This document shows, one piece after another, positions 1-14,165 of a stretch of DNA of 14,165 nucleotides (within the stretch, counting starts at the first letter, position 1; each line of letters starts with the position of its first letter). The stretch is from IMG/VR virus record IMGVR_UViG_2551306525_000004, positions 1-14,165 of that record; one strand, written 5' to 3'. The DNA is from a virus (lineage: Duplodnaviria; Heunggongvirae; Uroviricota; Caudoviricetes). The position numbers and the translations under genes are program-made. Under the pieces are notes generated by a model. That model was given only the letters and a program-made list of their open reading frames with translations, had not been told where the DNA came from and did not search any database.

Positions 1-138
1 TTTGTGTTGCCTTTGTGCAGAAAGCATCACGACGAGCTGCATGCGGATACCGTGGCATTTGAAGAGAAGTATGGCTCCCAGCTGGAGCTGATATTTCGTT
101 TTATCGATCGTGCGCTGGCAATTGGCGTGCTGGCCTGA
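1..138 (+). CDS. 3' end of an unidentified phage gene (partial, runs off the window start)
   Basis: Open frame from position 1 to TGA at 136-138 (...EEKYGSQLELIFRFIDRALAIGVLA*), immediately upstream of Q in the nin-region position. No family recognised. Confidence 0.4.
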   Translation, partial: FVLPLCRKHHDELHADTVAFEEKYGSQLELIFRFIDRALAIGVLA

Positions 139-155
139 TTTTGTGGAGAAAGTTG

Positions 156-533
156 ATGCGTGATATTCAAATGGTTCTGGATCGTTGGGGAGCATGGGCG
201 GCGAGTGATAGTTCAGGAGTAGACTATTCTCCTATAGCTGCTGGGTTTAAAGGGCTTCTTCCCTATACAAGCAAAACACGTCAGGCATGTTCAGATAGTG
301 ATGCATTAATTATTGAAGGTTGTCTTGCTCGTCTAAGGCAAAAAAGGCCGGACGAACATTCGCTTCTTGTTGCCCATTACCTATACGGTATCTCTAAAAG
401 AAAGCTCGCCAAGGCTCGTAAAAAGGATGAGAAACTAATACGCATTGAGATACAGATGGCTGAGGGGTTTATTGATGGCTGCCTATCGATGCTGGAAATT
501 AGTCTAGAGATGGACCCCGAAATTAAAGATTGA
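156..533 (+). CDS. Q: Late-gene antiterminator Q (short QuuD-like Q family)
   Basis: ATG at 156 preceded by GGAG (145-148); frame is open from TTG 141. Product MRDIQMVLDRWGAWAA... resembles the ~125-130-aa Q antiterminators of E. coli lambdoid prophages as I recall them, and it sits upstream of the lysis module. Confidence 0.8.
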   Translation: MRDIQMVLDRWGAWAASDSSGVDYSPIAAGFKGLLPYTSKTRQACSDSDALIIEGCLARLRQKRPDEHSLLVAHYLYGISKRKLAKARKKDEKLIRIEIQMAEGFIDGCLSMLEISLEMDPEIKD

Positions 534-539
534 TTATTG

Positions 540-564
540 AAGCCCGATTACTCGGGCTTTTGTT
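540..564 (+). terminator. Intrinsic terminator-like hairpin between convergent Q and the antisense gene
   Basis: Stem aagcccg (540-546) / cgggctt (553-559), loop attact, followed by T-rich tract. The stop codon of the minus-strand gene (548-550) lies inside the hairpin. Confidence 0.5.
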
Positions 565-1567
565 CCACATCTCGAACATAGAGAATTACTGCTGACTTAA
601 TGTCACCATCGACGTGTTTTGCGTTAATGCTCAAATGTACAGGCTTTCTTTCCCACTCAGCTCGCTGCAATGCTTCTTTGTTTCCGGATTCATCAAGGAA
701 AACATCCTGAACTACGCAGGTTAGACGTTGGTCGGTATCTACGCGTCGGACCTTAACTTTGAAACTCTCTGGGTCAGTATTATTGACTTCTTCAATTCGG
801 TAAATACCATCAATCCTCATTTCTGATGAACGTCTACGAGCATTCGTAACCAACTCTTTCGCCATTTCAGAATCAATAGTAACGCCATCAATTTGAGCGT
901 TATCTGAACGCACAAAGGATTTGACCATTTGGGTTTTAGCGTCATACGACATACGGTCCATGTTATCGAGAAGTGGTTTTTCCGCAATCATTTCTGAAAT
1001 AACCCGCAGGCGTTTAGTTTCTTGCTCGCTCATGATCTGCATAGTCCGGAGATGTTCTTTCTCTCCATCCTTAGCAATTTCTGCAAGGCGAATATCTTTA
1101 CGGTTGTCCAAGAACCGTTTAAATACTGTTACTCCGCCCCAGATGACTGCTGCGCCGAGAACAGTAAACATGATCTCAGTTGCGTTCATTTTACCAACAA
1201 GTTCCTGTGTGAGTTTGGTTAAAAAGCCATCAATGTTGATTTCTACTATTGAAGAACCCTGTTCTACCGTAACTTCTATTTCTAGGGCATCAAGTTCTTC
1301 TTTGGTCAGTTTGCGGACGTCAGGGACACCGTACTTGGCAAGGGCATATGATTTGTTGATTTGAGCTTGCATTTCAACAAATCCCTTCATAACTGAAGGT
1401 GTTAGCGATCTGTTGAATTTTTCACCGGTTAATCTGATGGTAAGGTTTGGCCATCCGTTGAAACTTAAACTGTCAGGTAAACCATAACCATCAAGATAGC
1501 TTTCAAGCAAATCGAAGGCTTGCTGCTCAGATTCAATGTCTACATGAATCTCATCAAACTTATCCAA
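548..1567 (-). CDS. Hypothetical membrane-anchored protein, 339 aa, unknown function (moron; candidate exclusion/defence factor)
   Basis: Long ORF with TTG start at 1567 preceded by GAGGA at 7-nt spacing. One central hydrophobic helix (EIMFTVLGAAVIWGGVTVF) followed by a K/R-rich stretch. AT-rich by eye and antisense to all flanking phage genes. Confidence 0.75.
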   Translation of the reverse strand: MDKFDEIHVDIESEQQAFDLLESYLDGYGLPDSLSFNGWPNLTIRLTGEKFNRSLTPSVMKGFVEMQAQINKSYALAKYGVPDVRKLTKEELDALEIEVTVEQGSSIVEINIDGFLTKLTQELVGKMNATEIMFTVLGAAVIWGGVTVFKRFLDNRKDIRLAEIAKDGEKEHLRTMQIMSEQETKRLRVISEMIAEKPLLDNMDRMSYDAKTQMVKSFVRSDNAQIDGVTIDSEMAKELVTNARRRSSEMRIDGIYRIEEVNNTDPESFKVKVRRVDTDQRLTCVVQDVFLDESGNKEALQRAEWERKPVHLSINAKHVDGDIKSAVILYVRDVEQKPE

Positions 1568-1862
1568 AAATATGTCCTCATTCTAAGCCAACTGTCACCG
1601 TGAGGTTTGGCAACGCCTGCTTTATTTTTCGTTTTAAGCTGTGTGGCAAAAAAATAATGGAAAAACAGATAAAAATCACTAACGCGGTCCGCATTTTCTA
1701 GATTACTGTGTTAAGAGTGGTTACTTCGCCACACAACTTAAACCCGCCGCTGAGCGGTTTTTTTGTACCTGTAAACTTGGTGCAGCACAGTAAACACGCT
1801 GGTGGTCGTGAATACTGACTTTTTATCTTGCTGGCTTTTTAGACAAGAGTTATTGGTATGTC
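1568..1862. promoter_or_regulatory. Divergent intergenic control region between the antisense gene and the HTH-ORF/methylase unit
   Basis: About 300 bp of AT-rich non-coding DNA between divergently oriented genes. Contains a weak hairpin followed by T7 (about 1747-1766). No confident -35/-10 assignment. Confidence 0.3.
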
Positions 1863-1886
1863 ATGTTAACCAGAAGGGAAAAAGAC

Positions 1887-2090
1887 ATGCTAAAACAGCA
1901 AGATATGACAGAAACCGCCGCCGCAGTCCTTCATTTCTTACCTGCTGACAAGTGGGTAACGCCACGCATGATGACGAGAACTACCGGAGTAAGCGAAGCC
2001 CGGTGCCAGTTAATACTGACTCAGTTAGTTCTGGCGGGTCTGGCGAAGGATAACGGCGGGTACGGGAATAAATTCAGACGCTGCCAGTAA
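1887..2090 (+). CDS. Small hypothetical protein, possibly HTH/winged-helix-like
   Basis: ORF is open from ATG 1863, but ATG 1887 has a better SD (AAGGGA, 7-nt spacing). About 68 aa; the segment TPRMMTRTTGVSEARCQLILTQL looks HTH-like. Lies directly upstream of the methylase. Confidence 0.45.
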   Translation: MLKQQDMTETAAAVLHFLPADKWVTPRMMTRTTGVSEARCQLILTQLVLAGLAKDNGGYGNKFRRCQ

Positions 2091-2209
2091 TGGCGGTTTC
2101 CTGCTGTGAAAATGGGCGGCTGGTGGGTGTTGGTAGCACCTGCCAGCCATTCGCTCATGCTTACTGGTCACAAGCGAACCACGGCCCACTGCTTTAGCGC
2201 AAAAGCAGA

Positions 2210-3301
2210 GTGAGCCTACCAGAGTTACGCTTACTGATCCATGAAAATACTGTAAAAATAAACAGTGTTGATTTAATCAACGCTGATTGCCTGCATTTTA
2301 TTCAGTCCCTGCCTGATAACTCCATTGATCTGATTGTTACCGATCCGCCGTACTTCAAAGTGAAGCCCAACGGCTGGGACAATCAGTGGAAAGGGGACGA
2401 AGATTACCTGAAGTGGCTGGACCACTGTCTGGCCCAGTTCTGGCGGGTACTGAAACCAGCCGGAAGCCTTTACCTGTTCTGTGGGCATCGCCTGGCATCT
2501 GATATTGAGATCATGATGCGTGAACGTTTCAACGTGCTTAACCATATCATCTGGGCGAAGCCGTCCGGACGTTGGAATGGGTGTAATAAAGAAAGTCTGC
2601 GCGCATATTTTCCTGCCACAGAGCGCGTTCTGTTTGCTGAACATTACCAGGGGCCATATCGCGGCAAAAGTGACGGCTATGCGGCAAAAGAAAGGGAACT
2701 CAAACAGCACATAATGGCACCGCTGATATCGTATTTCAGGGATGCTCGTGCCGAACTGGGTATAACGGCAAAACAAATTGCCGAAGCCACAGGTAAGAAA
2801 AATATGGTTTCCCACTGGTTTGGTGCCAGTCAGTGGCAGTTGCCGAATGAGGCTGACTACCGGAAGTTACAGGCACTGTTTTCCCGTATAGCGGCAGAGA
2901 AGTTTCAGGAACAACAACTGGAACAACCACACCACCAGTTGGTGGCATCTTATGATTCACTGAATCGCAAATATTCTGAATTGCTGGATGAGTTTAAATC
3001 TCTCCGGCGCTATTTCTCCGTATCAGTCTCCGTGCCTTATACCGATGTCTGGATGCATAAACCCGTTCAGTTCTACCCGGGTAAACATCCGTGTGAGAAA
3101 CCGGCGGATATGCTCAGGCAAATAATCAATGCCAGTAGTCGACCCGGCGATCTGGTTGCTGATTTCTTTATGGGATCCGGTTCCACAATAAAAGCAGCAA
3201 TGGCGCTGGGGCGTCGGGCGTTAGGTGTTGAGCTTGAGACAGAGCGGTTTAATCAGACCATCCAGGAAATCAGTATGTTATCAGCAAATACAATTTTGTG
3301 A
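2210..3301 (+). CDS. Site-specific DNA adenine methyltransferase, beta-class (CcrM/HinfI/YhdJ-like)
   Basis: Motif IV DPPY near the N-terminus (IVTDPPYF) and motif I FxGxG near the C-terminus (DFFMGSGST), preceded by HPCEKP, typical of beta-class N6A methyltransferases. GTG start at 2210. A central insert contains an HTH-like stretch (ELGITAKQIAEATG). Confidence 0.85.
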   Translation: MSLPELRLLIHENTVKINSVDLINADCLHFIQSLPDNSIDLIVTDPPYFKVKPNGWDNQWKGDEDYLKWLDHCLAQFWRVLKPAGSLYLFCGHRLASDIEIMMRERFNVLNHIIWAKPSGRWNGCNKESLRAYFPATERVLFAEHYQGPYRGKSDGYAAKERELKQHIMAPLISYFRDARAELGITAKQIAEATGKKNMVSHWFGASQWQLPNEADYRKLQALFSRIAAEKFQEQQLEQPHHQLVASYDSLNRKYSELLDEFKSLRRYFSVSVSVPYTDVWMHKPVQFYPGKHPCEKPADMLRQIINASSRPGDLVADFFMGSGSTIKAAMALGRRALGVELETERFNQTIQEISMLSANTIL

Positions 3302-3310
3302 ATTAATTCA

Positions 3311-3346
3311 ATTATTGGTGGGATGTCTGTGCCGTATAATGATTAC
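3311..3346 (+). promoter_or_regulatory. Candidate sigma70 promoter (possible late promoter pR'-like)
   Basis: Perfect -10 hexamer TATAAT at 3335-3340 with a weak -35 (ttattg, 3312-3317). Downstream initial region has repeated -10-like TACAGA/TACAGT (3344-3355), which could act as a sigma-dependent pause element. Confidence 0.25.
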
Positions 3347-3544
3347 AGATACAGTGTATCCTGCAATGCAGCAGGGCTGATGTGGTGGGTTGTACATAGC
3401 CTGCAAAGGATTGGCTTCATTAATTCATCGTTGATACAAGCGAGTCACGGTTGACCACGCCAACGGCTCATCGGTAAAAATCCGACACCGTGTCTTCTTA
3501 ACTCACTTATTGTTTCCACCCATGTTTTTGGATACCTGCTGTAG

Positions 3545-3582
3545 CTGTCAGATTAGCGCGATAATCTGACAGTCTTTTTTTT
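3545..3582 (+). terminator. Strong rho-independent terminator
   Basis: 11-bp perfect stem ctgtcagatta / taatctgacag with a 6-nt loop, followed by T8 (3575-3582). Confidence 0.65.
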
Positions 3583-3870
3583 ACAACGAATCCTTCTGAT
3601 CTGCTTTTGCGGGGCTTTTTGTATCCGCTCCATGCCCGGCGTATAAGCGGAGGTTGGTCAGTTTTCTAAAAATTGAAATACCTCACAATTCAGCCAGTTA
3701 ATGGTTGTTTGTCTGGCGAAGAGTTTGTAAATAAAAAAACGCATGGTGAATCCCCCTAAGCGGCGGGGCGAATCAGCAGTCAGTTCTGGGATAATCGCGG
3801 GTTCGTATGCTGATGCCGGACTCACCGGGAGGCACCCGGCACCATGCATCATGGTCATCCCCTTGTATGA

Positions 3871-3896
3871 TACCCCTCTCCGGAGGGGTATTTTTT
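3871..3896 (+). terminator. Strong rho-independent terminator
   Basis: 8-bp GC-rich stem tacccctc / gaggggta with loop tccg, followed by T6 (3891-3896). Confidence 0.6.
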
Positions 3897-4328
3897 GGAT
3901 AAAAAAGCCCGCGCTGGGAGGCACGGGCGGCAAGGAATAAAACGTGAAGAAATTTTCACAGGCGCATAATAATCCGATGTTGCCAGATTTTGCAACTGCA
4001 TCATCTGGTTATTATGTGAGCTGGAAAATCAGATTCTGTATGGACTGAAGCCATGCTGTTATTTAGGGCCAAAGAGCTGGCTTTTTCCCGCCTTCTCTCC
4101 AGTAACGATTAATGAGAAAAGAATGAAATGCTTTTCCTGGGGAGGAGGGCAGTAGAAAAAAGAACCCGCCAGCAAAAATATGGGGGATGAACAGCTTTTG
4201 CTACTCAGGTTGCTGGCGGGTATGGTTCTTCATGAAATAAGAATGTTACGCGGTATTTTTAATGAAAATGATAATTATTGTCAATTGGTTGTGCGTATTT
4301 TTTCATACATGACTGGTAAAGGTGATTC

Positions 4329-4360
4329 AGGCCATCAGAGTTTTGCTGATGGCCTTTTTT
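4329..4360 (+). terminator. Rho-independent terminator immediately upstream of the holin (tR'-like)
   Basis: 10-bp stem aggccatcag / ctgatggcct with a 7-nt loop, followed by T6. Ends 34 nt before the holin ATG. Confidence 0.6.
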
Positions 4361-4393
4361 CTTTCCGGTAGCACAGGTCTGTTGGGGCGGGAT

Positions 4394-4609
4394 ATGTATC
4401 AGATGGAAAAAATATCAACAGGCATTGCCTACGGCACCTCCGCAGGCAGTGCTGGCTACTGGTTTTTACAATGGCTTGATCAGGTTAGTCCGTCTCAGTG
4501 GGCTGCGATTGGTGTACTGGGAAGTCTGGTTCTGGGCTTTCTGACTTATCTGACGAATCTGTACTTCAAAATCAGAGAAGACAGAAGAAAGGCTGCGAGA
4601 GGAGAGTAA
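4394..4609 (+). CDS. S: Class II holin (phage 21 S-like pinholin) with dual-start motif
   Basis: 71 aa beginning [31 protein letters not shown]..., recalled as matching S21 (SAR-type TMD1 plus TMD2). Met1/Met4 dual start is typical of holin/antiholin pairs. The upstream in-frame extension to 4322 was not used because it would span the terminator. Confidence 0.85.
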
Positions 4610-4613
4610 TATA

Positions 4614-4958
4614 ATGGTCCAAAACTATGAAATGATTGTGAAAGGGATCCGCAATTTTGAGAATAAAGTTACGGTAACTTTAGCATTACAGGACAAAGAA
4701 CGCTTTGACGGTGAAATTTTTGACCTGGACATCTCGCTGGACCGTGTTGAAGGTGCCGCGCTGGAGTTTTATGAGGCAGCAGCCAGAAGGAGCATCAGAC
4801 AGGTCTTCCTGGATGTTGCTGCCGGGTTATGTGGAGGGGATGAGCAGTCGCCGGAAAAGCGCCCCATAATTTTAGAGGCGCAGAGTGTGTGGATAACCTA
4901 CAAAGGAAAACTGCCGGGAAGAATTACTGGTTCACTGAAGACTCCGCCGAAATGGTAA
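4614..4958 (+). CDS. Hypothetical protein inserted between holin and endolysin (DUF1327/YdfR-like by position)
   Basis: ATG 4614 with SD GGAGAG at 7-nt spacing, 114 aa. It occupies the holin-endolysin slot that ydfR occupies in the Qin prophage as I recall; the family assignment is not verified. Confidence 0.55.
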   Translation: MVQNYEMIVKGIRNFENKVTVTLALQDKERFDGEIFDLDISLDRVEGAALEFYEAAARRSIRQVFLDVAAGLCGGDEQSPEKRPIILEAQSVWITYKGKLPGRITGSLKTPPKW

Positions 4959-6324: not shown

Positions 6325-6618
6325 TTATTTTGAGCAATACACCCGCGCTTCCAGCGGAGTATAAATGCCAAAAGTGATGAAACCGAGCAATCCATTTACG
6401 AATGTTTGCTGGGTTTCTGTTTTAACCACATTTTCTGCACCACCACAAATTTTTGCTGCATCGACAGTTTTCTTCTGCCCAATTCCCGAAACGAAGAAAT
6501 GATGGGTGATGGTTTCCTTTGGTGTTACTGCTGTCGGTTTGTTTCCAACAGTAAACGTCTGTTGAGCACATCCTGTAATAAGCATTGCCAGAGCGGCAGA
6601 AAACAACATTTTTTTCAT
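6325..6618 (-). CDS. bor: Bor lipoprotein (serum-resistance/envelope lipoprotein)
   Basis: ATG at 6618 (minus) with AGGA SD. Product MKKMLFSAALAMLITGCAQQTFTV... with lipobox, close to lambda Bor as I recall it. Convergent with Rz/Rz1. Confidence 0.85.
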   Translation of the reverse strand: MKKMLFSAALAMLITGCAQQTFTVGNKPTAVTPKETITHHFFVSGIGQKKTVDAAKICGGAENVVKTETQQTFVNGLLGFITFGIYTPLEARVYCSK

Positions 6619-6816
6619 CTTATTATCCTGCATTGTTAAAAACGGCAGAATCCTATGTGACAACAATTAAACGATAGTTAAATGGATTGATGAAAATTAA
6701 AACTACACAGGTGAGCTCAGACGATTGGAGGGAGTTGGGGACACTCAGAATCCTGTAGAATGAAATAAACCGGTCTATCCGTCCATTACCCTTTTAGCTG
6801 CGCTGTATCGTCGCCG

Positions 6817-12625: not shown

Positions 12626-12935
12626 TCTCCCGCATATTGCCAGCATGGCTTTTAATGAGCCGCTGATGCTTGAACCCGCCTATGCGCGGGTTTTCTTTTG
12701 TGCGCTTGCAGGCCAGCTTGGGATCAGCCGCCTGACGGATGCAGTATCCGGCGACAGCCTGACTGCCGGAGAGGCACCCGCGGCGCTGGCGTTATCCGGT
12801 GATGATGACGGACCACGACAGGCCCGCAGTTATCAGGTCATGAACGGCATCGCCGTGCTGCCGGTGTCCGGTACGCTGGTCAGCCGGACGCGGGCGCTGC
12901 AGCCGTATTCGGGAATATCTTCAGTCCCATACTGA
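12606..12935 (+). pseudogene. C: Truncated gene C (head protease/scaffold); only about 103 N-terminal codons of lambda-like sequence, then out-of-context sequence to a stop
   Basis: GTG 12606, product MTAELRNLPHIASMAFNEPLMLEPAYARVFFCALAGQLGIS...RALQPYSG matches the lambda gpC N-terminus (full length about 439 aa). Homology stops near 12916 and the frame ends at 12935. Confidence 0.8.
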
Positions 12936-12936
12936 T

Positions 12937-13071
12937 ATGCCCGGCAACGATGACCTGAAGGGCATTAACGTGAAATACCGTTATGAGTTTACGGACACGC
13001 TGGGGATGGTGACGTCATTCAGCTATGCAGAAGACAAGAATCGCCAGCTGACTCATTACAGCGATAGCCGT
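12937..13071 (+). pseudogene. lom: Internal fragment of a lom-like (Ail/Lom/PagC family) outer-membrane protein gene
   Basis: Translation PGNDDLKGINVKYRYEFTDTLGMVTSFSYAEDKNRQLTHYSD matches an internal segment of lambda Lom (VPGSDDLNGINVKYRYEFTDTLGLVTSFSYAGDKNRQLTRYSD) as I recall it. No signal peptide and no C-terminus. Confidence 0.6.
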
Positions 13072-13245
13072 TCTGACGGTACTCATCCCCGCGCCAATCT
13101 GGCGGGCAATGGTTTCAATCGATGGCCAGCACACACCTTCGTCATTACTGAAATCAGCCAGGCGGGCCATAATTGCCACGCTGGATAATTTCATGCCTGA
13201 CGCTGCGCAACCATCCCATACATAGCCGGTTAATTTAGTGCTCAT
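13015..13245 (-). pseudogene. Truncated HTH (HTH_36-like) replication/regulatory gene N-terminus, e14 ymfN-like
   Basis: First ~58 codons (MSTKLTGYVWDGCAASGMKLSSVAIMARLADFSNDEGVCWPSIETIARQIGAGMSTVR) look like the HTH N-terminus of phage replication-initiation proteins. The remaining 18 codons are antisense of the lom fragment, so the gene is cut at about 13071/13072. Confidence 0.5.
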
Positions 13246-13254
13246 GACCGACCT

Positions 13255-13593
13255 CTATTTCCCTGAATTTACGACGAAACTGTTCGAGCGGACTGAAGCA
13301 CTCATGCTCATAGCCTTCGCGGAGGTAGATAACCCGTTGTGTTTCCGGTTCCCAACGAATGACTCTGACGGGCACTCCGTAGTGATCTTTGAACCAGCGG
13401 TTAACTTGTCGCAAAGGACTGTCTCCTTCTGCCGGTTGAAATCCCCCACAGCCCACTCTGCAAAGCTGTGGGTTACAATTTCCCTGTCACCTGGTACATT
13501 CACTGCATAGCAATATTCCACCTTCGCTTTTCCACCCGGTACAGGAAGCGCAATCAGTTGCGAGCGACGGTAGTGTGTTGTTAAACTGTTCAT
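13255..13593 (-). CDS. Hypothetical protein, 112 aa (e14 ymfM-like by size and position)
   Basis: ATG 13593 overlaps the stop of the upstream gene (ATGA). The size and the 189-aa / 112-aa / HTH gene order match e14 ymfL-ymfM-ymfN as I recall. The C-terminal half is low-complexity and an alternative frame overlaps it. Confidence 0.45.
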
Positions 13594-14159
13594 GCGTTAG
13601 TTTCTCCACAACCAGAAGCAATCGACGCCACGACGCCCGGAGCTGCACACTCGCGGGCGTCATTACTTTCTGAAATGCAAAAGATTTTGTAGACCAGTGC
13701 TGCATGCTCCTGCAGCTTCGAAATTGAGAGATACAGCTCGTCGTTAATTGCTGTCTTCTCATGCGGTTCCACTACACCGTCTTCGATTGCTGAACGAATC
13801 TGTTTTGAATAACTGCCGATCTGTTCAATGACTTCCAGCAGACGCTGGTTAATATCGGCGTTGTCCACATCCTCGACGTCAGGAAGCGACACAAAGACGC
13901 CATTTGCAGACTGCGCCACAGCATCAGCAATGAAGTGAGTGCCACCAGCACGCTGTAAAACCATTGCCCATCCCAGCGGGAAAATCTGATCGCCATCTGC
14001 ACGAAGGCGGTTGAATAAAGCGTTTTCTGTTACATCGAGCCAGTCAGCCGCTTCAGCGTAACCACCCGGCAACGCCGCGATAGTTTTTCTGACAGCTTTC
14101 ACGTACCACTCAGGCTGTTTTTCTATTTTCCAGTGATGCTTACCCACGATTAGCCTCAT
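13590..14159 (-). CDS. Phage CII-like regulatory protein (CP76-type; e14 ymfL-like), 189 aa
   Basis: Full-length [61 protein letters not shown]...; the family assignment is from memory. Its promoter lies outside the window. Confidence 0.6.
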
Positions 14160-14165
14160 CGTTGT

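What the first reader, a model, noticed from the sequence alone, without database searches (positions are those of the whole stretch)
1568..3301. Small HTH-like ORF plus CcrM/HinfI-type adenine methyltransferase with an internal HTH-like insert, divergent from the orphan membrane gene
The methyltransferase is clearly beta-class (DPPY before FxGxG, with HPCEKP...FFMGSGST near the C-terminus), and no restriction endonuclease is evident nearby. Two features are unusual. A 68-aa HTH-like ORF precedes it, resembling a controller-protein arrangement but attached to a methylase. And the methylase has a ~100-aa central insert containing a helix-turn-helix-like stretch (ELGITAKQIAEATGKKNMVSHWF). It could be an anti-restriction orphan methylase carried as late-region cargo. 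Alternatively, because it shares a ~300-bp divergent control region with the antisense membrane gene, the two could be coupled as a modification plus effector pair. The second idea is speculation.
Basis: partly seen in the sequence, partly recalled or inferred. Interest (0 to 1): 0.55.

Follow-up and report, generated by a model that had tools for sequence, protein, structure and literature searches.

The report
Prophage M.EcoGII-type methylase, start codon frameshifted
This is an ordinary lambdoid-prophage copy of the known sequence-independent adenine methylase M.EcoGII, here with its start codon knocked out of frame, travelling with a small winged-helix protein and a structured RNA leader that I did not find described, and it is not functionally tied to the neighbouring antisense gene.

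Summary
A 67-aa ORF (1887-2090) precedes a beta-class adenine methyltransferase ORF (2210-3301) with a central HTH-bearing segment, and no endonuclease is nearby.

The methylase is not CcrM/HinfI-like. It is 81% identical over its full length to M.EcoGII, the characterised non-specific prophage adenine methylase. The "insert" is that family's normal target-recognition domain.

The pair sits directly behind a candidate Q-dependent late promoter and terminator, so it reads as late-operon anti-restriction cargo that is silent in lysogens.

Three points are new relative to the finding:
- This allele has a 1-bp deletion (A5 to A4) just after the ancestral ATG. It is exact in 24 E. coli records, against 883 with the intact version. 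The enzyme is probably poorly translated.
- The small ORF is a genuine winged-helix protein with an invariant third helix. It keeps a fixed position upstream of these methylases across Enterobacterales.
- A 133-nt leader abutting the methylase start is a covariation-supported RNA structure absent from Rfam.

The antisense gene is a recent, independently mobile insertion, so the "modification plus effector" idea is not supported.

Verdict: a new member of a known kind, with modest interest.

The parts
141..533 (+). Antiterminator Q gene (context: activator of the late operon)
   Evidence: Pfam Phage_antitermQ E=2e-52. Distant match to Q21 structures 6p18 and 6jnx, E=7e-4.
534..1670 (-). Inserted cassette carrying the antisense 339-aa gene (548-1567, TTG start with a GAGGA SD). 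It sits in a variable slot between Q and its late promoter.
   Evidence: Phage 1720a-02 goes from the Q stop straight to the sequence homologous to window ~1671 onward. cdtI and strain 120899 carry different minus-strand genes in the same slot.
1676..1722 (+). Candidate late promoter PR' and Q-loading region: inverted repeat GCGGTCCGC (1684-1692), a -10-like TAGATT (1699-1704) and conserved TAAGAGTGG (1712-1720)
   Evidence: Conserved only in loci whose upstream Q belongs to the same family. The repeat changes while staying symmetric (GCGTACGC, TTCGTTACGAA). The position matches the standard Q cassette layout (10.1101/651190). This is inference; no transcript data.
1741..1765 (+). Intrinsic terminator (candidate tR') in front of the module
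   Evidence: Stem 1746-1758 followed by T7. Annotated as a terminator in phage Ayreon. A GC stem plus T-run at this position is visible in nearly all of the 25 aligned loci (not clear in L112 and L114), although the sequences differ.
1827..1863 (+). Conserved element CTTGCTG-N12-AGAGTTAT-N3-TATGTCA of unknown function (promoter, operator or RNA element)
   Evidence: Near-invariant blocks in 25 loci from many genera. Also present upstream of the RCQLLLTQF-type small ORFs.
1887..2090 (+). 67-aa winged-helix protein, companion of the methylase
   Evidence: phrog_331 E=5e-26. AF2 model pLDDT 86.7, with H1-H2-H3 plus a beta wing. Foldseek matches to Zalpha (TM 0.85), TrmBL2, IclR and MarR. Residues 40-47 (CQLILTQL) are invariant and R39 nearly so, each encoded by 2-6 synonymous codons.
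2111..2243 (+). Structured 133-nt leader ending at the ancestral ATG of the methylase
   Evidence: Covariance model R1 scores 142.9 bits. 20 of 28 pairs show compensatory changes, and 92% of cells are paired against 27-40% in slid controls, on 55 distinct sequences. MFE -61.6 kcal/mol, z=-2.6. No Rfam family.
2241..2247 (+). Ancestral ATG (2241-2243) followed by an A4 run (2244-2247) that is A5 in relatives. The 1-bp deletion puts the ATG out of frame.
   Evidence: Alignment with mEp460 and Ayreon. The exact A4 version is in 24 E. coli records and the exact A5 version in 883, out of 1084 matching records. RefSeq resorts to an ATC start at 2237.
2210..3301 (+). M.EcoGII-family beta-class N6-adenine DNA methyltransferase ORF. 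Homologous body 2246-3298; DPPY 2342-2353; target-recognition domain with HTH about 2717-2950; FxGxG 3164-3187.
   Evidence: 81% identity to M.EcoGII over 346 aligned columns. 98% identity to the mEp460 and cdtI methylases. Pfam PF01555 E=5e-42. PADLOC MTase_II E=5e-151.

Best explanation
The region is the first cargo module of a lambdoid prophage late operon. It encodes an M.EcoGII-family beta-class adenine methyltransferase. Its central HTH-containing domain binds nucleic acid with little or no sequence preference. During lytic growth the enzyme would methylate adenines throughout progeny phage DNA, so the DNA survives restriction in the next host.

Unregulated expression of this enzyme harms the cell, so the gene is kept silent in the lysogen. 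It lies behind a Q-dependent promoter and terminator. Its start codon has no Shine-Dalgarno and is immediately preceded by one strand of a conserved long-range RNA helix. A 67-aa winged-helix protein encoded just upstream is a conserved companion. It is most likely a regulator of the module, acting on the conserved upstream element or on the leader.

In this allele a 1-bp deletion removes the ancestral ATG from the reading frame. The enzyme can then start only from weak in-frame codons (GTG 2210, CTG 2234, ATC 2237) and is probably made at very low level or not at all.

Shown here: family membership, gene order, conservation of the pair and of the RNA structure, and the deletion. Inferred: sequence-independent specificity, Q dependence, translational occlusion, the role of the small protein, and the loss of expression.
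For: Family and domain:
- 81% full-length identity to M.EcoGII. The 1720a-02 methylase, cited by the M.EcoGII authors as very similar, is 93% identical to M.EcoGII and has the same Q, small ORF, methylase order.
- The HTH stretch is 20/23 identical to M.EcoGII, and the LG..[IV]..ATG...SHWF..SQWQLP core of that segment is invariant across 7 diverged members.
- M.EcoGII is non-specific, toxic when constitutively expressed and silent in the lysogen (PMC5778455). Its central domain is modelled as a four-helix bundle with an HTH (PMC11551740).

Late-operon position:
- Q lies upstream. A terminator sits at 1746-1765. A Q-type-specific element precedes it.

Companion protein:
- The small ORF and methylase keep fixed spacing in 78/80 and 29/33 loci. 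Selection on helix 3 acts at the protein level.

Leader:
- Covariation supports the RNA structure. The leader abuts the ATG in 55 of 79 diverged loci, with one hit per locus and none elsewhere.

Deletion:
-.
Against: - No methylome or expression data exist for this ortholog. The 19% divergence from M.EcoGII could change specificity.
- The M.EcoGII sequence used came from a machine-read supplement and contains a few apparent read errors.
- M.EcoGII is active without the small protein, and some relatives lack it, so it is not required for catalysis.
- PR' is placed by position and conservation only.
- The rest of the methylase ORF is intact. Weak starts could still give some enzyme.
- The covariation counts on alignment A8 come from an alignment fitted to the model.
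Confidence: 0.7

Rival explanations
1. In this prophage the methylase is simply a dead gene. The start-codon frameshift, inside a decaying prophage, means neither it nor its control elements do anything now.
For: The A4 deletion puts the ATG out of frame. The exact A4 version of the 91-nt start region is in 24 records and the exact A5 version in 883, out of 1084. GTG 2210 lies in a leader helix and has no SD. Homology with otherwise 99.5%-identical E. coli genomes stops at about 12916, which may mean the prophage is rearranged or truncated in the window's source. The related APEC O78 prophage contains several annotated partial genes.
Against: No other lesion is present over 351 codons, which remain 98% identical to intact phage copies. 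The frame stays open upstream to a GTG. Near-cognate starts can give low-level translation. This rival concerns the allele, not the nature of the module.
Confidence: 0.5
2. A sequence-specific orphan methylase of the CcrM/HinfI (GANTC) kind that acts on the host chromosome as an epigenetic regulator.
For: It is beta-class with DPPY before FxGxG. It shows weak similarity to CcrM (E=1e-15) and RsrI (E=4e-21) in the catalytic core.
Against: The CcrM equivalog model scores 68 bits against a cut-off of 830. The match to CcrM covers only the FxGxG region. The protein ends about 35 residues after FxGxG and so lacks the C-terminal extension of the 366-residue CcrM chain beyond the matched region. The closest characterised enzyme, at 81% identity, is non-specific (PMC5778455). 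The location in a late operon argues against expression in lysogens.
Confidence: 0.07
3. A remnant restriction-modification system with a controller (C) protein. The small HTH protein would time methylase expression as C proteins do.
For: A small DNA-binding-fold ORF lies directly upstream in the same orientation, and a conserved non-coding element precedes it.
Against: The small protein is a winged helix with only sub-threshold TrmB, MarR and DprA_WH matches, not an Xre-type C protein. No endonuclease accompanies it in any of more than 100 loci examined. No symmetric C-box was seen. The module moves as a phage late gene pair.
Confidence: 0.1
4. The methylase and the divergent antisense membrane gene form a modification-plus-effector pair that shares the 1568-1886 control region.
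For: They are adjacent and divergent. In E. coli, 83 of the 86 genomes with the antisense gene also carry this whole arrangement.
Against: All 86 copies are at least 99% identical, which points to one recent insertion. At least 1075 E. coli genomes have the methylase start region, most without the antisense gene. The gene is present in 4/80 viral loci and 0/33 species-level loci that carry the pair. Homologues stand alone next to cI in Salmonella and between tail genes in Pseudomonas. The model shows no nuclease fold: an N-terminal domain, long helices with a membrane segment, and an OB-like barrel. The shared region is mostly the Q-dependent promoter and terminator that other phages have without the gene.
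Confidence: 0.03

Closest known systems
M.EcoGII (E. coli O104:H4 C227-11 prophage; GenBank EGT69837.1) and its 95%-identical twin M.EcoGI
   Same: Beta-class motif order, about 350 aa, 81% identity end to end. Same central HTH-bearing target-recognition domain and following helical linker. Lambdoid prophage location. Orphan, with no endonuclease (PMC5778455, PMC11551740).
   Different: 19% sequence divergence. Activity and specificity of this ortholog are untested. This allele has lost its ATG from the frame. The published work does not mention the upstream small ORF or the leader.
Methylases of phages mEp460, cdtI, Ayreon and Stx2c phage 1720a-02
   Same: 98% (mEp460, cdtI, Ayreon) or 82% (1720a-02) protein identity. 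Identical module of terminator, small ORF, leader and methylase, followed by lysis genes or stx.
   Different: Those copies keep the A5 run and the ATG start. mEp460 and Ayreon have a different Q type. None carries the 548-1567 gene.
CcrM / M.HinfI (GANTC) and M.RsrI, M.MboIIA (beta-class enzymes with solved structures)
   Same: Shared Rossmann catalytic core with DPPY and FxGxG motifs.
   Different: Similarity is limited to the core. The target-recognition domain is different. The region C-terminal to the core in CcrM is absent. Those enzymes are sequence-specific and cellular or restriction-system linked.
Controller (C) proteins of type II restriction-modification systems
   Same: A small nucleic-acid-binding-fold protein encoded just upstream of, and co-oriented with, the gene it might control.
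   Different: C proteins are Xre-type HTH dimers that bind a palindromic C-box and mainly gate the endonuclease. Here the fold is a winged helix, there is no endonuclease, and no C-box was seen.
Promiscuous alpha-class phage adenine methylases (Drozdz et al., cited in PMC5778455) and phage Dam-like enzymes
   Same: Same proposed biological role: broad adenine methylation of phage DNA to evade host restriction.
   Different: Opposite motif order (FxGxG first) and no sequence relationship in the recognition domain.

Membership tests
M.EcoGII family (prophage beta-class non-specific adenine methyltransferase) | Motif order: catalytic DPPY, then central recognition domain, then FxGxG | tested here: met
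   DPPY at aa 45-48 and FFMGSGST at aa 319-326. A single Pfam PF01555 stretch has about 90 extra central residues.
M.EcoGII family (prophage beta-class non-specific adenine methyltransferase) | Full-length sequence similarity to M.EcoGII, including the recognition domain | tested here: met
   281 of 346 aligned columns identical (81%), 90% positives, 2 gaps. The HTH stretch is 20/23 identical.
M.EcoGII family (prophage beta-class non-specific adenine methyltransferase) | Four-helix-bundle recognition domain with HTH, joined by a charged helical linker | tested here: inconclusive
   Inferred from alignment to M.EcoGII residues 160-259, for which an AlphaFold model is published (PMC11551740 section 24). 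I did not model the methylase.
M.EcoGII family (prophage beta-class non-specific adenine methyltransferase) | Encoded in a lambdoid prophage, orphan, silent in the lysogen | tested here: met
   Location between Q and the lysis genes with no endonuclease is confirmed. Silence in the lysogen is not testable here.
M.EcoGII family (prophage beta-class non-specific adenine methyltransferase) | Methylates adenine in any sequence context | not testable with these tools
   Needs a methylome or an in vitro assay.
M.EcoGII family (prophage beta-class non-specific adenine methyltransferase) | Intact ATG start as in relatives | tested here: not met
   The A5 to A4 deletion puts ATG 2241 out of frame.
CcrM / HinfI-type GANTC methyltransferases | Reaches the curated CcrM equivalog score | tested here: not met
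   NF050803 scores 68.3 bits against a cut-off of 830.
CcrM / HinfI-type GANTC methyltransferases | Protein continues well beyond the FxGxG region, as the 366-residue CcrM chain does | tested here: not met
   The protein ends about 35 residues after FxGxG. The match to 6pbd covers only its residues 196-253 of 366.
Controller (C) protein of restriction-modification systems | Xre-type helix-turn-helix fold | tested here: not met
   The AF2 model is a winged helix. The best folds are Zalpha, TrmBL2, IclR and MarR. Only sub-threshold TrmB, DprA_WH and MarR Pfam matches were found.
Controller (C) protein of restriction-modification systems | Linked restriction endonuclease gene | tested here: not met
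   None in the window. The fixed module layout in related loci leaves no room for one.
Controller (C) protein of restriction-modification systems | Palindromic C-box operator upstream of the C gene | tested here: inconclusive
   A conserved element exists at 1827-1863, but it is not an obvious palindrome.
Q-dependent late regulatory cassette (Q, PR', pause element, terminator, late genes) | Q gene upstream and an intrinsic terminator before the first late gene | tested here: met
   Q at 141-533. Terminator at 1746-1765. The layout matches 10.1101/651190.
Q-dependent late regulatory cassette (Q, PR', pause element, terminator, late genes) | Promoter with a Q-binding element and a sigma-dependent pause element matched to the Q type | tested here: inconclusive
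   The sequence upstream of the terminator is shared only by loci with the same Q family, and its inverted repeat varies symmetrically. No hexamers of good quality were found and no transcript data are available.
Methylase plus effector pair with the antisense gene 548-1567 | The two genes co-occur across genomes | tested here: not met
   4/80 and 0/33 loci. Homologues occur elsewhere without a methylase of this kind alongside.

The most novel reading that the evidence does not exclude
The 67-aa winged-helix protein and the 133-nt structured leader together form a dedicated, previously undescribed control circuit for a toxic, promiscuous methylase. For example, the protein could bind the conserved upstream element or the leader RNA to time or limit methylase synthesis. 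Alternatively it could bind the enzyme or heavily methylated DNA and so shape which DNA gets modified.
Probability: 0.3. Interest if true: 0.6.

Novelty: new member of a known kind. Interest (0 to 1): 0.35.

Why it matters
M.EcoGII is widely used as a reagent for chromatin and RNA footprinting, and it has been proposed as a model of an ancestral beta-class methylase. Yet nothing I could find describes how phages control such a dangerous enzyme.

This analysis shows that its natural gene context is conserved: terminator, small winged-helix protein, structured leader without a Shine-Dalgarno, then the methylase. That gives concrete, testable control elements. For this particular window the practical message is more modest. 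It is a common prophage cargo gene in a derived allele that has lost its start codon, and its neighbour on the other strand is an unrelated mobile gene.

Tried and rejected
- CcrM/HinfI assignment: rejected on curated model scores and on the limited alignment.
- A conserved upstream mini-ORF starting at GTG 2210, translationally coupled to the methylase: rejected. The start codon is absent in several genera (Providencia L093 and L103, Buttiauxella L119) and the frame is not conserved.
- Programmed frameshifting or transcriptional slippage to rescue the A4 allele: considered unlikely. The required shift is -1 onto GAA, and the run is only four As (sequence reasoning).
- Z-DNA-binding (Zalpha) identity for the small protein: the fold match is excellent (TM 0.85). 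By my own manual alignment from the recalled Zalpha sequence, the Zalpha contact residues N173, Y177 and W195 correspond to Q41, T45 and F/Y63, so I make no claim.
- SAM or other riboswitch identity for the leader: no Rfam match even at E<=1.
- Defence-system identity for the antisense gene or the small ORF: no PADLOC or Pfam hit.
- Literature searches for a description of the small ORF, the leader, or induction-dependent expression of M.EcoGII found nothing.
- A sigma-70 promoter scan of 1-4700 gave no more hits than shuffled sequence (9 against 6.9 +/- 2.8), so it was not used to place promoters.
Full report
**What is in the sequence**

The window is the late region of a lambdoid E. coli prophage. 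Positions 400-3500 are 100% identical to E. coli APEC O78 and at least 14 other complete genomes, mostly from poultry and pigs. The gene order is:
- Q antiterminator, 141-533
- a 339-aa gene on the minus strand, 548-1567
- a 319-bp gap
- a 67-aa ORF, 1887-2090
- a methyltransferase ORF, 2210-3301
- about 1 kb of non-coding DNA
- holin, endolysin, spanins, terminase and portal

- DPPY (aa 45-48) precedes FFMGSGST (aa 319-326), and HPCEKP is at aa 293-298.
- The HTH-like stretch is at aa 182-204.
- Pfam N6_N4_Mtase matches at E=5e-42 as one stretch, with about 90 residues more than the profile.
- No nuclease-like gene is nearby.

**What the methylase is**

It is not a CcrM/HinfI relative in any useful sense. 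The curated CcrM model scores 68 bits against a cut-off of 830. Solved beta-class enzymes match only the catalytic core.

The closest characterised enzyme is M.EcoGII. Using the M.EcoGII sequence printed in a supplement of PMC11551740 (machine-read, with a few apparent errors), the window protein is 81% identical and 90% similar over 346 aligned columns with two gaps.

M.EcoGII is a prophage-encoded beta-class enzyme. It methylates adenine in any sequence context. It is harmful when expressed constitutively, is not expressed in the lysogen, and is proposed to protect phage DNA from restriction (PMC5778455).

Its authors describe the architecture as an N-terminal DPPY, a central target-recognition domain and a C-terminal FxGxG. 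A later AlphaFold model describes that central domain (residues 160-237) as a four-helix bundle containing a helix-turn-helix, followed by a charged helical linker (PMC11551740).

The HTH stretch is 20/23 identical to M.EcoGII. The LG..[IV]..ATG...SHWF..SQWQLP core of that segment is invariant in seven members that are only 57-66% identical overall to the Plesiomonas member used as reference.

**A lesion at the start codon**

Phages mEp460 and Ayreon are 98% identical to the window at protein level. Aligned with them, the window lacks one A in the run that follows the ATG: ATGAAAAAT has become ATGAAAAT.
- The ancestral ATG (2241-2243) now opens a four-codon frame.
- The methylase frame stays open only because no stop intervenes back to GTG 2210.
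- The exact A4 version of a 91-nt segment occurs in 24 E. coli records. The A5 version occurs in 883 of the same 1084 matching records.
- RefSeq annotates an ATC start at 2237 for the A4 allele.
- GTG 2210 has no Shine-Dalgarno and lies in a helix of the leader described below.

I infer that this allele makes little or no enzyme. The rest of the gene is intact, so the mutation looks recent.

**Where the module sits**

In Stx2c phage 1720a-02 the methylase is 93% identical to M.EcoGII. There the Q stop is followed within about 180 bp by the small ORF and then the methylase.

The window shares that intergenic sequence from about 1671 onward. It contains:
- an inverted repeat, GCGGTCCGC
- a conserved TAAGAGTGG
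- an intrinsic terminator, with stem 1746-1758 plus T7

The part upstream of the terminator is shared only by loci whose Q belongs to the same family. Its repeat changes while keeping its symmetry. That is what is expected for a late promoter with its Q-loading site, given the standard cassette of Q, PR', pause element, terminator and late genes (10.1101/651190). This placement is an inference; I have no transcript data.

The 1.1 kb between Q and this region (534-1670, carrying the antisense gene) is an insertion relative to 1720a-02. Phage cdtI and E. coli strain 120899 carry different minus-strand genes in the same slot.

**The small ORF**

It has a good Shine-Dalgarno and belongs to phrog_331, a family of unknown function.

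An AlphaFold model built from 20 homologues has mean pLDDT 86.7. It shows three helices and a beta-hairpin wing. The best structural matches are minimal winged-helix domains:
- ADAR1 Zalpha, TM 0.85
- TrmBL2
- IclR and MarR regulators

Pfam matches to TrmB, DprA_WH and MarR stay below their cut-offs.

In 29 species-level loci, residues 40-47 (CQLILTQL, in the third helix) are invariant and R39 nearly so. Each is encoded by two to six synonymous codons, so selection acts on the protein.

The ORF is followed at a fixed distance by an M.EcoGII-type methylase in:
- 78 of 80 viral contigs; the other two contigs end first
- 29 of 33 species-level genome loci, from Mangrovibacter, Plesiomonas, Providencia, Proteus, Buttiauxella, Kluyvera, Salmonella, Citrobacter, Klebsiella and others

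Starting instead from 80 more diverged methylases, an iterated profile finds a homologous small ORF upstream in 49. Several others have a similar-looking ORF, and some clearly have none. It is therefore a frequent but dispensable companion. That agrees with M.EcoGII being active on its own.

**The leader**

The 150 nt between the small ORF and the methylase are 77% identical across genera whose flanking proteins have diverged to as little as 43% (small protein) and 57% (methylase) identity to the window's.

RNAalifold predicts two elements:
- a 5' hairpin
- a long-range helix that encloses a second hairpin, with its 3' strand (CTTACTGATC) ending four bases before the ATG

A covariance model built from 34 copies finds the element once per locus. 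It always ends at the methylase ATG. It is present in 55 of 79 diverged loci, including loci without the small ORF, and nowhere else in 433 kb.

On 55 distinct sequences:
- 20 of 28 pairs show compensatory changes
- 92% of cells are paired, against 27-40% when partners are slid
- no shuffle reaches the observed values

This alignment is fitted to the model, which favours the structure. The earlier independent MAFFT alignment gave the same picture on a smaller scale.

The window copy (2111-2243) scores 142.9 bits and folds at -61.6 kcal/mol, z=-2.6. Rfam has no matching family.

No Shine-Dalgarno precedes the ATG. I therefore infer that the structure limits translation initiation. This is untested.

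**The antisense gene**

It is real-looking, with a TTG start and a GAGGA Shine-Dalgarno, and it belongs to phrog_6191. It has no Pfam or PADLOC hit.

It is unrelated to the methylase module.
- It occurs in 86 of 5426 E. coli genomes, all at 99% identity or more.
- It is in 4 of 80 viral loci and none of 33 genome loci that carry the pair.
- Its homologues stand alone next to the cI repressor in Salmonella and between tail genes in Pseudomonas.
- Its model (pLDDT 84) has an N-terminal alpha/beta domain, long helices with a membrane segment, and an OB-like barrel. It shows no nuclease fold.

The "modification plus effector" idea is therefore not supported.

**Verdict**

The finding is a correct description of a common prophage module whose enzyme family is already characterised. 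The interpretation as late-region anti-restriction cargo is the best supported. The C-protein analogy is positional only, and the coupling to the antisense gene is rejected.

Three things go beyond what I found in the literature:
- the conserved winged-helix companion
- the structured leader
- the start-codon deletion in this allele

Together these make the locus moderately interesting rather than surprising.

Noticed in passing
window 548-1567 (-): The antisense 339-aa gene belongs to a family of uncharacterised proteins of about 327-348 aa found across Gammaproteobacteria. It sits as a single gene in different prophage cargo slots: after cI in Salmonella and between tail genes I and J in Pseudomonas. 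The predicted fold is an N-terminal alpha/beta domain, long helices with a membrane segment, and a C-terminal OB-like barrel. It is a plausible superinfection-exclusion or defence candidate but matches no PADLOC model.
   Followed up: partly
window 534-1670; L004 1032-2500; L207 350-2000: The space between the Q gene and its candidate late promoter is a variable slot. It holds different minus-strand cargo genes in different phages (one gene here, two in cdtI, two others in strain 120899, none in 1720a-02).
   Followed up: partly
window 3712-3900 (+): A copy of the sRNA family STnc100 (Rfam RF02076, 114.5 bits against a gathering score of 47). It lies in the roughly 1-kb non-coding stretch between the methylase and the holin, which also holds several terminator-like hairpins.
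   Followed up: no
window 1827-1863 (+): A conserved element, CTTGCTG-N12-AGAGTTAT-N3-TATGTCA, lies between the terminator and the small ORF in loci from many genera. It resembles a -35 hexamer plus 17 nt plus a poor -10. Whether it is a promoter, an operator or an RNA element is unknown.
   Followed up: partly
window about 12916-14165: Homology with otherwise 99.5%-identical E. coli genomes stops at about 12916, just after the portal gene. The remaining 1.2 kb carries minus-strand ORFs of a different kind, so the prophage may be rearranged or truncated here.
   Followed up: no
window 6325-6666 (-): A minus-strand lipoprotein gene sits after the spanins. The equivalent gene is annotated iss (increased serum survival) in the related APEC O78 prophage.
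   Followed up: no
L123, L144, L150, L174 and similar loci, about 700-1240: In a diverged group of phages the winged-helix ORF has a different third helix (EFIIEQM). It is preceded by a 73-79-aa ORF ending in YQFED, and about 265 nt separate it from the methylase. A third group (RCQLLLTQF type) has only 80-100 nt and lacks the 133-nt leader.
   Followed up: partly
L107 and L108 (Mixta mediterraneensis), 3501-3900: Only the first 29 codons of the small ORF remain there. They are followed by an unrelated 92-aa gene and then membrane-protein and lysis-like ORFs, so the methylase module has been replaced while its 5' end was kept.
   Followed up: no
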